Shown here one piece after another: positions 1,808 through 64,000 of a stretch of DNA of 64,000 nucleotides (position 1 is its first letter; every line of letters begins with the position of its first letter). Source of the stretch: Escherichia coli (GTDB taxonomy: Bacteria; Pseudomonadota; Gammaproteobacteria; Enterobacterales; Enterobacteriaceae). The notes beneath the pieces were generated by a model. The model had not been told where the DNA came from. It was given only the letters and a program-made list of their open reading frames with translations, and ran no database searches. The stretch is taken from NCBI RefSeq assembly GCF_036507355.1, contig NZ_AP027877.1, one strand, 5' to 3'. The position numbers were made by a program, and so were the translations under genes.

Positions 1808-1840
1808 CGAAACCCACCTTAAGGTGGGTTTTGTTATTTT
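1808..1840. terminator. GC-rich hairpin with flanking T-run between the convergent thiH and yjaZ genes
   Basis: aaacccacc-ttaa-ggtgggttt followed by tgttatttt on the + strand; lies directly 3' of the yjaZ stop on the - strand. Confidence 0.5.
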
Positions 1841-58210: not shown

Positions 58211-60520
<2,310 letters not shown>

Positions 60521-60719
60521 GATCGTAATTAAGCTTTTTTGATTATGTCCGAATTCGGACAAATGCTTTATAAAAAAGGGTTTTAGCTTCATATCCTTCA
60601 AGTAATGAGGGAGAAAACAAGGCTGATAACCTTATTTTCCCGCCCTCATTTCGAGGCAGCATTTTGTGCTCTGTTTAAAATTTGTGATCACTGTGTGATT
60701 TTCGCAAAAGCCACACTAT

Positions 60720-61613
<894 letters not shown>

Positions 61614-61700: not shown

Positions 61701-62108
61701 AAGGGCGTCAACCGAAAAATGACCAATGATGGTGAGGAAAAATCAGGGAAGATGAATTTTCTTCATCTGTATATGGGAGTAGATAGGTTCTCTCGCATTA
61801 TCGCGTCGTGAAGTAATGAATAAATGCTTAAGCCATCGGCTGGAAATTTATTTAAATAAGAGTTAATTAATATTCACGACGGTGTTAGCTGAACACTTAT
61901 TTAAATAAAACAAATAGATACCATAATTTGCATTCATTACTGCATGTTTATTATTTGAACTACTTCAAACTATTAATAATTTTTCAAAAATTATGTTGCA
62001 GAGCAATTATGTATCCCCCACGATAAGTAGAACGTTCTACTAGAACGTTCTACTTATACAAAAAAGACTAATTCGCGCAGCTTTATGCGCTATTCGGGGG
62101 AAATCAGC

Positions 62109-63434
62109 ATGAGTCTGATGTCGAGTTTCGTGAAGTCACTTTCTAAATTATCGATGATTGGTCGCGCCCTAATGCTACCAATTTCGCTTCTGCCTGCCGC
62201 GGGGTTGTTACTCGCGTTCGGCGATAAATTCCATTTGCCGTTGATGATGAATGCGGGCGGCATTATTTTTGATAACTTGCCGATGCTTTTTGCTATCGGT
62301 TCCGCCGTAGGGCTGGCTTCTGAATCGGGAATTGCGGCGTTATCCGCAGCCGTTTCCGTTTTTGTCACCAATATCACCATCAGCACCGTACTTAGCATTA
62401 CGCCAGAAATGGCCGGGCAAGGCGGCAAATACGCGATGGTGGTGGGGATCCCAACACTGCAAATGGGCGTTTTTGGCGGCCTGATATGCGGGATTCTGGC
62501 GGCGTGGTGTTACAACCGTTTTCATACAATGCAATTGCCAGAATTCCTTGGTTTTTTCTCCGGAAAACGCTTTGTGGCTATCGCGACGGCTTTTCTCTCC
62601 TTCATTCTTGGCTTGTCACTGCCTTATGTCTGGCAACACATTCAGTCAGGAATCGATGCGTTATCGGTTATCGTTAATGGTAACAACCAGGCAGCATCAA
62701 CCTTTATTTTTGGTGTAACTGAACGGGCGCTCATTCCGCTTGGCCTGCACCACATCTGGTATCCATCGTTTTGGTATTCTTTTGGGGATTACACTACCCA
62801 TGCCGGGCAAATGATTCACGGCGATCAGACGATTTGGTTCAAGATGTTGGAAGAAGGGGTGAAATCATTTAGCAGCGACAGTTATCATGACGCTGGTAAA
62901 TTTATGCAAGGTGAATTCCCACTGATGCTGTTTGCCCTGCCTGCGGCGTGCCTGGCGATGTATCTGCTGCATGCACATATTGCCAAATCCTTCTCTGCGG
63001 GGCTTATTGACTATATTTCGTTTGGTATCCTGCCATCCTTTAATGGCTACGAAACCAACTTCCTGAGCGCCATTATCGTCGGCGTGCCAATGGCGGTGAT
63101 CTACTACTTCACCTTCCGCTTTGTTATTCGTCGTTTTGATGTAAAAACGCCTGGTCGCACCGAAACTACGGTTAGCGCTAATGATAAATCCGATGACGAG
63201 CTGGCAACAGAAATCATCACGCTGCTTGGCGGTCAGCAAAACGTTAAATCGGTAGGTTCCTGCATCACGCGTTTACGTCTGGAAGTCTCTGATAAAGAAG
63301 CGGTGGATCAGGATGGTCTGAATAATATTGGCGCCCGTGGCGTGGTTTTTGTCGGCGATAACGGCATTCAGGTAATTTTTGGCGCGCGAGCGCAATTTAT
63401 CGCGCAAACCATGTCGACGATGATCGGTAAATAG
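62109..63434 (+). CDS. PTS glucose/glucoside-family EIICB component (substrate unknown; alpha-glucoside-type suspected)
   Basis: 441 aa from MSLMSSFVKSL (the in-frame ATG at 62085 is less likely; GGGGGA SD sits before 62109); polytopic EIIC domain plus C-terminal EIIB with active-site Cys in GSCITRLRLEVSD; not expected upstream of metF in K-12. Confidence 0.8.
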   Translation: MSLMSSFVKSLSKLSMIGRALMLPISLLPAAGLLLAFGDKFHLPLMMNAGGIIFDNLPMLFAIGSAVGLASESGIAALSAAVSVFVTNITISTVLSITPEMAGQGGKYAMVVGIPTLQMGVFGGLICGILAAWCYNRFHTMQLPEFLGFFSGKRFVAIATAFLSFILGLSLPYVWQHIQSGIDALSVIVNGNNQAASTFIFGVTERALIPLGLHHIWYPSFWYSFGDYTTHAGQMIHGDQTIWFKMLEEGVKSFSSDSYHDAGKFMQGEFPLMLFALPAACLAMYLLHAHIAKSFSAGLIDYISFGILPSFNGYETNFLSAIIVGVPMAVIYYFTFRFVIRRFDVKTPGRTETTVSANDKSDDELATEIITLLGGQQNVKSVGSCITRLRLEVSDKEAVDQDGLNNIGARGVVFVGDNGIQVIFGARAQFIAQTMSTMIGK

Positions 63435-63515
63435 CCTTAAGATTACTCGATGTCAGAGGTTCTGGTCCCTGACCAGAACCTTCTTGCTATTTAAAGAATC
63501 AACGTTGTTCAGGGA

Positions 63516-64000
63516 GTGAGTTTGAAGAAAGTCAGCATAATTGATGTTGCTAAAAGAGCCGGAGTTTCCGTCTCTACCGTGTCGCTAGTGCTGCGCCAGA
63601 AAGGGAAAATCTCAGAGGCGACCATCGGGAAAGTTCATGCTGCTATTGACGAACTGGGCTACGTGCATAATGTTGCCGCCGCCAATTTACGTTCCCACAC
63701 TTCAAATCTTATCGGACTGATTTTACGTGATTTTAGCGATAGCTTTTCCATCAAAGTGATGGCTAGCATTGTTCAGGAACTGGAAGCCAAGGGCTATATG
63801 GTATTCCTTGGGCAACCACAGAACGAACATGAACATCTTGAACGTTGTTTACTTTCCTTCAAGCAACAAGGTGTTGCCGGAGTGATTTATCTGGCTTCCG
63901 ATGCGCATCGTGAAACCCTACCCACACTAATCCGCCAGTGTTCGCTTCCCCTTGTCGTCGCGTCACAAACGCCCATCAAAGATGAGTGCAACCTGGTGTT
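63516..64000 (+). CDS. LacI/GalR-family transcriptional regulator, N-terminal part (3' end outside window)
   Basis: HTH IIDVAKRAGVSVSTVSLVLRQKGKISEATIGKVHAAIDELGYVHNVAAANL; start at GTG 63516 or TTG 63522, preceded by an AGGGAG SD. Confidence 0.75.
   Translation, partial: MSLKKVSIIDVAKRAGVSVSTVSLVLRQKGKISEATIGKVHAAIDELGYVHNVAAANLRSHTSNLIGLILRDFSDSFSIKVMASIVQELEAKGYMVFLGQPQNEHEHLERCLLSFKQQGVAGVIYLASDAHRETLPTLIRQCSLPLVVASQTPIKDECNLV

What the first reader, a model, noticed from the sequence alone, without database searches (positions are those of the whole stretch)
62027..62053. Tandem perfect palindromes GTAGAACGTTCTAC / TAGAACGTTCTAC just upstream of the PTS gene
The 12 bp perfect palindrome TAGAACGTTCTA occurs twice, head to tail, 13 bp apart (62028-62039 and 62041-62052), about 55 bp before the EIICB start and downstream of a plausible sigma70 promoter (TTGAAC ... 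TATTAAT around 61955-61980). The central AACGTT core matches the general LacI/GalR-family operator architecture, so this is a strong candidate operator for the LacI-family repressor encoded right after the PTS gene. The closely spaced double site is unusual.
Basis: seen in the sequence. Interest (0 to 1): 0.45.

Follow-up and report, generated by a model that had tools for sequence, protein, structure and literature searches.

The report
Tandem LacI-type operator before PTS gene
Two identical 12-bp palindromes set 13 bp apart just upstream of a sugar-transporter gene are almost certainly the paired binding sites of the MalI-like repressor encoded next door. This layout recurs in the LacI family and was already predicted by computer for this regulator, so the finding is real but fairly ordinary.

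Summary
TAGAACGTTCTA occurs at 62028-62039 and 62041-52, and the two copies form one 35-bp palindrome (62023-62057), the longest in the window.

A protein-based, motif-blind search found the gene pair (glucose-family PTS EIICB followed by a MalI-like LacI regulator) in 80 species genomes of about 35 enterobacterial genera. All 78 with enough upstream DNA, plus two E. coli, carry both sites at exactly this 13-bp spacing, while the flanking DNA and neighbouring genes vary. No other copy was found in the window, in about 750 kb of related loci, or elsewhere in 5,426 E. coli genomes.

The sites sit 3 bp after a conserved weak promoter (TTGCAG-17-CACGAT), so they cover the inferred transcription start.

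The half-site resembles the E. coli MalI operator, and the regulator's recognition helix is identical to MalI's.

Tandem LacI-family sites 13 bp apart are a described but mechanistically unresolved class (GntR at gntKU). RegPrecise very probably lists this regulon already as "PtsR, 2 sites".

The window's PTS gene carries a 174-bp in-frame deletion. Nothing here has been tested experimentally.

Verdict: a new member of a known kind; modest interest.

The parts
61954..61969 (.). CRP/FNR-like 16-bp palindrome TTTGA-ACTACT-TCAAA. Inferred upstream activator site, about -70 from the inferred start.
   Evidence: Conserved block in the 81-sequence alignment. Kluyvera versions are TGCGATGTACATCGCA and TGAGAACTAGATCTCA, changing symmetrically in both halves. 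Its centre lies 45.5 bp upstream of TTGC in most genera and 34.5 bp in Escherichia, an 11-bp (one helical turn) difference. The identity of the binding protein is inferred, not tested.
61996..62001 (+). Inferred -35 hexamer TTGCAG.
   Evidence: TTGC is invariant in the alignment. Its distance to operator site 1 is fixed at 32 bp in 70 of 81 sequences and 33 bp in 4.
62019..62024 (+). Inferred -10 hexamer CACGAT (weak; 17-bp spacer). The implied transcription start is about 62030-62032.
   Evidence: Positions 2 (A, 62020) and 6 (T, 62024) are invariant. Variants include CACTAT, CAGTAT, GACGAT and CATTAT. The consensus scan does not call it, which fits an activator-dependent promoter. The start site has not been mapped.
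62026..62041 (.). Operator O1: AGTAGAACGTTCTACT, centre 62033/62034, overlapping the inferred +1.
   Evidence: The 12-bp core is perfect in 72 of 81 genomes, and ten of its twelve positions are invariant.
62039..62054 (.). Operator O2: ACTAGAACGTTCTACT, centre 62046/62047, about +15. It shares 3 bp with O1.
   Evidence: Present at exactly 13 bp from O1 in 81 of 81 sequences. Position -4 is G/A/T/C and +4 is C/A, so it is weaker than O1 in most genera.
62023..62057 (.). The complete 35-bp palindrome (17-bp arms around base 62040) made by O1, O2 and their flanks.
   Evidence: longest palindrome in the window. The centre base is C in 72 and G in 9 of 81 genomes, never A or T, so it always completes the 14-bp palindrome of one of the two sites.
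62075..62090 (+). Small GC-rich stem-loop in the 5' untranslated region: GCGCA-GCTTTA-TGCGC.
   Evidence: A 4-6-bp stem with an A-rich loop is predicted at the same place in most lineages, with different stem sequences such as AGCGC/GCGCT, GCAC/GTGC, GGGC/GCCC and ACGCG/CGCGT. Function unknown.
62109..63434 (+). PTS EIICB gene of the glucose family; ribosome-binding site GGGGG at 62096-62100. This copy has a 174-bp in-frame deletion after 62952.
   Evidence: NCBIfam: best match TIGR02002, below its cutoff. Homologues are 499 aa; the window copy is 441 aa. The deletion lies between 10-bp direct repeats TGGCGATGTA and removes the GITEPVEF segment.
63456..63482 (+). Terminator-like hairpin between the PTS gene and the regulator gene.
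   Evidence: A strong hairpin with lineage-specific stem sequences is present at this place in the loci inspected.
63522..64000 (+). 5' part (159 codons) of the MalI-like LacI-family regulator; TTG start, ribosome-binding site AGGGAG at 63511-63516. It runs off the window.
   Evidence: The full-length E. coli homologue passes the NCBIfam MalI subfamily cutoff (325.4 against 310). It is 97% identical over 159 aa to the E. whittamii homologue. The TTG start is used in 9 of the 10 loci printed.

Best explanation
The two palindromes are a composite operator, O1 plus O2. Each is a 14-16-bp LacI-type site, and the two share their terminal base pair. The binding protein is the MalI-like repressor (probably RegPrecise 'PtsR') encoded directly downstream of the PTS EIICB gene.

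The operator starts 3 bp after the -10 element of a weak sigma-70 promoter that probably depends on an activator (CRP-like site upstream). It covers about -5 to +24 relative to the inferred start. Without inducer, two repressor dimers probably occupy O1 and O2 together, about 1.24 helical turns apart and so on roughly perpendicular faces of the DNA. This would block RNA polymerase from forming an open complex or clearing the promoter. An unidentified sugar or sugar phosphate linked to the transporter would release them.

The regulator gene has no operator of its own. It probably depends on read-through of the intergenic hairpin and/or a weak constitutive promoter, with a poor TTG start codon.

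Shown: the sequence, its conservation, the gene linkage, the uniqueness of the motif, and the similarity to MalI operators.
Inferred: the binding itself, the stoichiometry, the transcription start, the CRP role, the direction of regulation, and the inducer.

In this particular genome the transporter gene carries an internal deletion, so the switch may control a dead gene.
For: 1. Conservation. A protein-based, motif-blind search found the PTS gene in 80 species genomes of about 35 genera. Every locus with enough upstream DNA has both sites at exactly 13-bp spacing, 69-91 bp before the ATG. The operator and its short flanks are the most conserved stretch of the upstream region apart from short promoter and ribosome-binding-site blocks.
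2. Linkage. The MalI-like regulator follows the PTS gene in 82 of 82 loci, while the flanking genes differ: metF, folD-ybcJ and others.
3. Specificity. The E. coli K-12 MalI sites read from the malI-malX region are GATAAAACGTTTTATC and GATAAAACGTTTTACC (a 16-bp MalI site at both promoters is stated in PMC5543585). O1 is AGTAGAACGTTCTACT. The regulator shares AGVSVSTVSLVL with MalI and passes the NCBIfam MalI subfamily cutoff.
4. Uniqueness. No other site scoring 10 bits or more occurs in the 64-kb window or in about 750 kb of loci. In 5,426 E. coli genomes the 35-mer occurs only at this locus, in the 8 genomes that carry the cassette. In a metagenome scan, 72 of 80 hits are this cassette.
5. 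Position. The distance from the conserved TTGC to O1 is fixed at 32 bp, with a [C/G]AnnAT -10 hexamer between them.
6. Both sites needed. No single-site variant occurs among the 81 sequences, although the direct repeat should slip easily. One genome, Siccibacter turicensis (L058), has three copies in the same register. The shared junction base is always C or G.
7. Precedent. Ravcheev 2014 reports the 13-bp class and lists a PtsR regulog with 2 sites in Enterobacter sp. 638. That strain's LacI-family protein ABP59667.1 clusters at 90% identity or more with these regulators.
8. Oligomeric state. The regulator aligns end to end with the dimeric repressors RbsR and PurR and has no LacI-like C-terminal tetramerisation tail.
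Against: - There is no experimental binding, footprint, start-site or expression data for this system.
- The operator sequence alone does not identify the protein. A LacI subfamily only about 25% identical, with a different recognition helix (VSTALVSVVF), uses the identical 25-bp composite in high-GC soil bacteria.
- Whether two dimers can sit 13 bp apart is unresolved in the literature.
- The promoter hexamers are weak (3 of 6 each) and were not called by the consensus scan.
- The link to RegPrecise PtsR rests on indirect evidence.
- Whole genomes of cassette carriers were not scanned for single sites, so the regulon may be larger.
Confidence: 0.8

Rival explanations
1. Only one dimer binds at a time. 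O1 and O2 are mutually exclusive alternative registers, or O2 is a tolerated by-product of a 13-bp slippage duplication. The second copy would then add at most about a two-fold gain in occupancy.
For: The contact zones of the two sites overlap by 1-3 bp. Ravcheev 2014 notes that the arrangement is hard to reconcile with known structures. O2 is degenerate in most genera. The triple array in L058 shows that 13-bp units can be added by slippage.
Against: - Both sites are kept at exact spacing in 81 of 81 independently sampled genomes, with no single-site variant.
- In a second LacI subfamily both copies changed in concert (AACGTT to ACCGGT) while the spacing stayed the same.
- The tandem GntR sites at gntKU are reported as functional.
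Confidence: 0.15
2. The palindrome works as a nucleic-acid structure rather than a protein site: a DNA cruciform, or a stem-loop at the 5' end of the mRNA that affects stability or translation.
For: From the inferred start, the RNA can form an 8-bp hairpin, AACGUUCU-ACU-AGAACGUU. The whole element is a perfect 17-bp-arm palindrome in the window.
Against: - Pair counts on 39 distinct sequences: the inner pair (columns 15-21) is broken in 20, with no compensating change. The fraction of paired cells barely exceeds the shuffled controls (87.3% against 86.7%).
- The folding energy of the 5' untranslated region is not exceptional (z = -1.5).
- No T-run follows, so it is not a terminator.
- If the start is near 62031, half of O1 is not transcribed.
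Confidence: 0.04
3. The sites are bound mainly by a regulator encoded elsewhere: the genuine MalI, which has the same recognition helix, or an unrelated factor that reads the central GTTCTA-N-TAGAAC inverted repeat.
For: The recognition helix is identical to MalI's. O2 in most genera is TAAAACGTTCTA, which is half MalI-like. The distant subfamily shows that different proteins can read this sequence.
Against: The operator travels with the adjacent regulator in every genome, whatever the context. O1 differs from MalI sites at positions 4, 7 and 8 on each side of the centre, that is 6 of 16 positions, consistently. The CG-centred register is the one that is conserved.
Confidence: 0.05
4. The regulator acts here as an activator or dual regulator rather than a simple repressor, as reported for Vibrio cholerae FruR.
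For: LacI-family activators exist (PMC7897506). The promoter is intrinsically weak.
Against: The sites lie over and downstream of the inferred start rather than in the spacer or upstream. A separate upstream activator-type site is present.
Confidence: 0.04

Closest known systems
E. coli K-12 MalI repressor and its 16-bp operators at the divergent malX and malI promoters
   Same: - LacI-family repressor; the regulator here passes the NCBIfam MalI subfamily cutoff.
- Identical recognition helix.
- Similar operator core: TAAAACGTTTTA in K-12, TAGAACGTTCTA here.
- The target is a glucose-family PTS EIICB gene with a CRP-type site upstream.
   Different: - Only 37% protein identity; the PTS protein is 34% identical to MalX.
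- The regulator lies downstream and in the same direction, not divergent, and there is no malY.
- The MalI sites are single and 79 bp apart, one per promoter. Here two sites are fused at 13 bp on one promoter.
- Operator positions 4, 7 and 8 on each side of the centre differ.
GntR tandem operators upstream of E. coli gntKU, the prototype of the 13-bp overlapping class in Ravcheev et al. 2014
   Same: Two LacI-family palindromes with centres 13 bp apart. In K-12 the sequence is ATGTTACCGATAACAGTTACCCGTAACAT: two 14-bp sites sharing one base pair. They lie close to the start of the regulated gene. Ravcheev 2014, citing Tsunedomi 2003, reports them as functional and conserved in orthologues.
   Different: A different subfamily and half-site (TGTTAC). 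The GntR sites are imperfect, whereas the two sites here are identical perfect palindromes forming a 35-bp super-palindrome. I could not read the primary paper.
RegPrecise regulog 'PtsR' (id 5738, Enterobacteriales; regulator Ent638_0983 of Enterobacter sp. 638)
   Same: A LacI-family regulator named after a PTS gene, 'sugar utilization', one regulator, two predicted sites. Enterobacter sp. 638 has an orthologue of this regulator, ABP59667.1. A contig encoding the identical protein carries GTAGAACGTTCTACTAAAACGTTCTAC upstream of the PTS gene.
   Different: It is a computational prediction in one genome only. I could not verify that the locus tag corresponds to this protein accession. Site sequences are not in the stored supplement.
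Cooperative double LacI-family sites at 21-22 bp (RafR, ScrR, V. cholerae FruR O1/O2) and LacI tetramer looping
   Same: More than one operator per promoter is used to strengthen control.
   Different: Those spacings are whole numbers of helical turns, or rely on a tetramerisation domain. Here the spacing is 1.24 turns and the protein has no tetramerisation tail.
Uncharacterised LacI subfamily of high-GC soil bacteria, found here
   Same: The identical composite TAGAACGTTCTA[C/G]TAGAACGTTCTA lies next to a TTGACA-type promoter and next to its LacI-family regulator. A relative has TAGACCGGTCTA-G-TAGACCGGTCTA with the same spacing.
   Different: The regulator is about 25% identical and has another recognition helix. 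It is transcribed divergently from its target. The targets are xylose-isomerase-like TIM-barrel and Gfo/Idh/MocA genes, not a PTS.

Membership tests
LacI/GalR-family operator | Even-length palindrome of 14-20 bp with a central CG step | tested here: met
   GTAGAAC|GTTCTAC occurs twice. The central AACGTT is invariant in 81 sequences except for one base in one genome.
LacI/GalR-family operator | A cognate LacI-family regulator is encoded at the locus and co-occurs with the site | tested here: met
   The regulator lies directly downstream in 82 of 82 loci. Pfam LacI and Peripla_BP domains are present.
LacI/GalR-family operator | Site placed where a bound protein interferes with RNA polymerase | tested here: inconclusive
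   The comparative promoter model puts O1 over +1. The transcription start has not been mapped experimentally.
LacI/GalR-family operator | Direct, effector-sensitive binding by the regulator | not testable with these tools
   Needs gel-shift or footprinting experiments.
MalI regulon (orthologue of E. coli malI-malXY) | Regulator orthologous to MalI | tested here: not met
   37% identity to K-12 MalI. It passes the broad NCBIfam subfamily model (325.4 against 310), but it is an additional copy in E. coli strains, which are expected to carry malI as well. It is therefore a paralogue.
MalI regulon (orthologue of E. coli malI-malXY) | Divergent malI and malX-malY arrangement with one operator per promoter | tested here: not met
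   Here the order is PTS then regulator, in the same direction, with no malY and fused operators on one promoter.
13-bp overlapping tandem LacI-family operators (Ravcheev 2014 class) | Two sites of the same motif with centres 13 bp apart | tested here: met
   The centres are 62033.5 and 62046.5. The same geometry was read at K-12 gntK.
13-bp overlapping tandem LacI-family operators (Ravcheev 2014 class) | The arrangement is conserved among orthologous regulons | tested here: met
   81 of 81 sequences.
13-bp overlapping tandem LacI-family operators (Ravcheev 2014 class) | Both sites contribute to regulation | not testable with these tools
   Supported only indirectly: no single-site variants, and a concerted change of both copies in a second subfamily.
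RegPrecise PtsR regulog | The regulator is the orthologue of Ent638_0983 | tested here: inconclusive
   Enterobacter sp. 638 encodes an orthologue, ABP59667.1. The correspondence between locus tag and accession was not verified.
Dispersed repeat family (REP/ERIC-like) | Many copies at unrelated loci in one genome | tested here: not met
   Only these two copies occur in the 64-kb window. None occurs elsewhere in the loci. There is one place per genome in the 8 E. coli carriers. Whole-genome scans for single copies were not possible.
Intrinsic terminator or structured RNA | Stem followed by a T-run, or base pairing kept by compensatory changes | tested here: not met
   No T-run follows. The inner pair is broken in 20 of 39 distinct sequences without compensation.

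The most novel reading that the evidence does not exclude
The 13-bp tandem may be an obligatory composite binding mode of LacI-type dimers, not just two neighbouring operators. In this mode two dimers would pack at the closest spacing that avoids overlapping base contacts, about 90 degrees apart around the helix, possibly with DNA unwinding or bending. No structure of such a complex has been solved.

The composite appears to have been kept or reached independently in at least three subfamilies: GntR, this PtsR group, and a high-GC soil group in which both half-sites changed in concert. This locus, a perfect 35-bp palindrome, would be the cleanest model for solving it.
Probability: 0.3. Interest if true: 0.55.

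Novelty: new member of a known kind. Interest (0 to 1): 0.3.

Why it matters
- **Annotation.** The finding gives a concrete regulatory model for a widespread but unstudied two-gene sugar-uptake cassette of Enterobacteriaceae. It also corrects the automatic label "MalI", which is misleading: the regulator is a paralogue with its own operator.
- **Open mechanistic question.** The system is unusually clean for asking how two LacI-type dimers can use sites only 13 bp apart. The two sites are identical and perfectly symmetric, a natural three-site variant exists, and a second unrelated subfamily has the same layout.
- **This genome.** The practical importance is small, because the transporter gene is internally deleted.

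Tried and rejected
Rejected: the spacer is 10 bp, and across genera the element behaves as a symmetric CRP-like site.
- **-10 element as GATAAG with TTGCAG as -35.** Rejected: the spacer would be 20 bp and the final T is missing.
- **Second, autoregulatory operator before the regulator** (ATCAACGTTGTT at 63499-63510). Rejected: it scores below threshold, and the segment is an insertion found only in the window and E. whittamii.
- **Literature search for the motif string.** It returned only eukaryotic heat-shock elements.
- **Searches for the locus tags and for 'PtsR'.** Nothing relevant was found.
- **Tsunedomi 2003.** The paper is not held in the library.
- **RNA or DNA hairpin reading.** Tested and not supported.
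- **Repeat-family reading.** Tested and not supported.
- **Palindrome at 61976-61994** (ATAATTTTT-C-AAAAATTAT). Not conserved outside the closest relatives.
- **Organism of the high-GC subfamily.** Not identified: all relatives are unnamed metagenome proteins.

Full report
**Observation.** The window reads ...CACGATAAGTAGAACGTTCTACTAGAACGTTCTACTTATAC.... TAGAACGTTCTA is at 62028-62039 and 62041-62052, and these are the only matches in 64 kb even with two mismatches allowed. The two copies and their flanks form a single palindrome, 62023-62057, with 17-bp arms around base 62040. A single 12-bp palindrome means little: the window has 19, against 17.5 expected. The 17-bp-arm palindrome, however, is the longest in the window, and an identical palindrome repeated within 20 bp appeared in only 1 of 200 simulated sequences.

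**Context.** Upstream, on the minus strand, lie katG and metF, 98% identical to E. coli. Downstream lie three features:
- A glucose-family PTS EIICB gene. Its conserved start is ATG 62109, preceded by GGGGG.
- A terminator-like hairpin at 63456-63482.
- The first 159 codons of a LacI-family regulator that starts with TTG at 63522.

The same island lies between metF and metL in only 8 of 5,426 complete E. coli genomes, at about 87% DNA identity. There it also carries a 5'-nucleotidase-like gene and a hypothetical gene. The closest relative of the window's island is that of Escherichia whittamii, at 93%.

**Conservation.** I searched one genome per species with the full-length PTS protein, which is blind to the motif. 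This returned 80 loci from about 35 genera of Enterobacteriaceae and Erwiniaceae.
- All 78 loci with enough upstream DNA, plus the two E. coli loci, carry two sites at exactly 13-bp spacing, 69-91 bp before the ATG.
- The regulator follows the PTS gene in 82 of 82 loci, while the outer neighbours differ.
- In an alignment of 81 distinct upstream regions, the operator and its short flanks are the most conserved stretch apart from short promoter and ribosome-binding-site blocks.
- O1 is nearly invariant. O2 varies at position -4 (G 27, A 45, T 8, C 1) and at +4 (C 68, A 13).
- The base shared by the two 14-bp palindromes is C in 72 and G in 9 genomes, never A or T. It therefore always completes one of the two sites.
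- No genome has a single site. Siccibacter turicensis has three sites in the same 13-bp register.

**Uniqueness.** A weight matrix built from the sites finds nothing else scoring 10 bits or more in the window or in about 750 kb of related loci. This includes the region upstream of the regulator gene. A BLAST search with the 35-mer against 5,426 E. coli genomes hits only this locus in the 8 carrier genomes. The element is therefore not a repeat family.

**Promoter.** Across genera, 61954-61969 (TTTGA-N6-TCAAA) behaves as a symmetric CRP/FNR-like site.
- The Kluyvera versions are TGCGA-N6-TCGCA and TGAGA-N6-TCTCA.
- Its distance to the core promoter is 11 bp shorter in Escherichia than in most other genera. 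That is one helical turn, as expected for a face-dependent activator site.

The conserved core promoter is TTGCnn (61996-62001), 17 bp, then [C/G]AnnAT (62019-62024), with the A and the final T invariant. The TTGC-to-O1 distance is fixed at 32 bp. This places the start near 62031, O1 over +1, O2 near +15, and the CRP-like site near -70. All of this is inference; the consensus scan did not call this weak promoter.

**Who binds.** The E. coli K-12 MalI operators, read directly from the malI-malX region, are GATAAAACGTTTTATC and GATAAAACGTTTTACC. That MalI binds a 16-bp site at both promoters is stated in PMC5543585. O1 is AGTAGAACGTTCTACT: the same core, with symmetric differences at positions 4, 7 and 8 on each side of the centre. 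The regulator is 37% identical to MalI overall but shares AGVSVSTVSLVL, the recognition helix. It passes the NCBIfam MalI subfamily cutoff. It aligns end to end with the dimeric RbsR and PurR, without a LacI-type tetramerisation tail. The PTS protein is 34% identical to MalX and closest to the glucose-specific model TIGR02002, below its cutoff. The system is therefore a paralogue of MalI-MalX, not its orthologue.

**Comparison with what is known.** Ravcheev et al. 2014 (PMC4052901) report peaks at 13, 22 and 32 bp in the distances between LacI-family sites. They found 13-bp overlapping pairs at 110 operons, cite GntR at gntKU as functional, and call the binding mode unresolved. I confirmed the same geometry in K-12 upstream of gntK: ATGTTACCGATAACAGTTACCCGTAACAT. 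Their supplement lists a regulog "PtsR" (Ent638_0983, Enterobacter sp. 638, 2 sites). That strain encodes an orthologue of this regulator, and a contig encoding the identical protein has the double site upstream of the PTS gene. So this regulon has very probably already been predicted by computer. I found no experimental work on it.

**A second family.** A metagenome scan for the composite returned mostly this cassette: 72 of 80 loci, plus 2 loci cut off at one end. Five hits were unrelated contigs, four of them with 69-71% G+C. In these the identical 25-bp composite lies between a divergent LacI-family regulator and an operon of xylose-isomerase-like TIM-barrel and Gfo/Idh/MocA genes, next to a TTGACA-type promoter. 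That regulator is about 25% identical to the one here and has the recognition helix VSTALVSVVF. Relatives of that regulator keep the layout. One, 63% identical, has TAGACCGGTCTA-G-TAGACCGGTCTA: both copies changed together while the spacing was kept. This shows two things. The 13-bp composite is an architecture found across the family. And the operator sequence alone does not identify the protein; gene linkage does.

**Rival readings.**
- A nucleic-acid hairpin is not supported. The inner pair is broken in 20 of 39 distinct sequences without compensation, the fraction of paired cells matches the shuffled controls, folding is unexceptional, and no T-run follows.
- Mutually exclusive binding of one dimer cannot be excluded. 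It fits poorly with the complete retention of both sites and the concerted change seen in the second family.
- Cross-binding by the genuine MalI, or an activator role for the regulator, remain minor possibilities.

**State of the cassette in this genome.** The window's PTS gene lacks 174 bp after 62952. The loss lies between 10-bp direct repeats (TGGCGATGTA), stays in frame, and removes the GITEPVEF segment of the EIIC domain. All other copies examined are full length. From general knowledge of glucose-family EIIC domains, this segment is needed for sugar binding. The transporter is therefore probably inactive here, while its operator remains perfect.

**Verdict.** The promoter assignment is corrected. 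The "unusual" spacing belongs to a described class whose mechanism is still open. This is a new member of a known kind, of modest interest.

Noticed in passing
window 62952/62953 (within the PTS gene, 62109-63434): The PTS EIICB gene has a 174-bp in-frame deletion between 10-bp direct repeats TGGCGATGTA. It removes 58 residues, including the GITEPVEF segment. All 82 homologues examined are full length (499 aa), so this copy is probably non-functional.
   Followed up: yes
L107:3081, L134:8621, L150:4830, L158:5064, L102:934; also L208:2417-2445, L209:2419-2447, L210:2377-2405: The identical 25-bp composite TAGAACGTTCTA[C/G]TAGAACGTTCTA occurs in unrelated contigs, four of them high-GC soil contigs. 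It lies between a distant LacI-family regulator (about 25% identity, different recognition helix) and sugar isomerase/oxidoreductase genes. One relative has TAGACCGGTCTA-G-TAGACCGGTCTA: both copies changed in concert at the same 13-bp spacing.
   Followed up: partly
L058:3905-3960 (Siccibacter turicensis LMG 23730): Three operator copies in a row at 13-bp intervals: GTAGAACGTTCTAC TAAAACGTTCTAC TAAAACGTTCTAC. This is a natural three-site variant, probably produced by slippage of the 13-bp unit.
   Followed up: partly
window 62075-62090: A small GC-rich stem-loop with an A-rich loop lies in the 5' untranslated region between the operators and the ribosome-binding site. It is present in most lineages with different stem sequences, which suggests a conserved RNA structure of unknown role.
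   Followed up: partly
window 61954-61969: A CRP/FNR-like palindrome whose distance to the core promoter differs by exactly 11 bp (one helical turn) between Escherichia and most other genera.
   Followed up: partly
window 63456-63482 and 63522: A strong hairpin with lineage-specific stem sequences separates the PTS gene from the regulator gene in the loci inspected. The regulator uses a TTG start codon in 9 of the 10 loci printed (GTG in the other). Both features suggest deliberately low regulator expression.
   Followed up: partly
window 61757-64000 compared with 58211-61610: The katG-metF backbone is 98% identical to E. coli. The island is only about 86% identical to the island of the 8 E. 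coli carriers and 93% to that of E. whittamii. This suggests separate acquisition of the island, or its replacement by recombination.
   Followed up: partly
window 1809-1831: A 22-bp perfect palindrome, AAACCCACCTTAAGGTGGGTTT, followed by a T-rich run lies between convergent ORFs. It looks like an ordinary bidirectional intrinsic terminator.
   Followed up: partly
L001:8854-9984: The hypothetical gene at the far end of the E. coli island gives weak matches to an IS1-type zinc-binding N-terminal domain.
   Followed up: no
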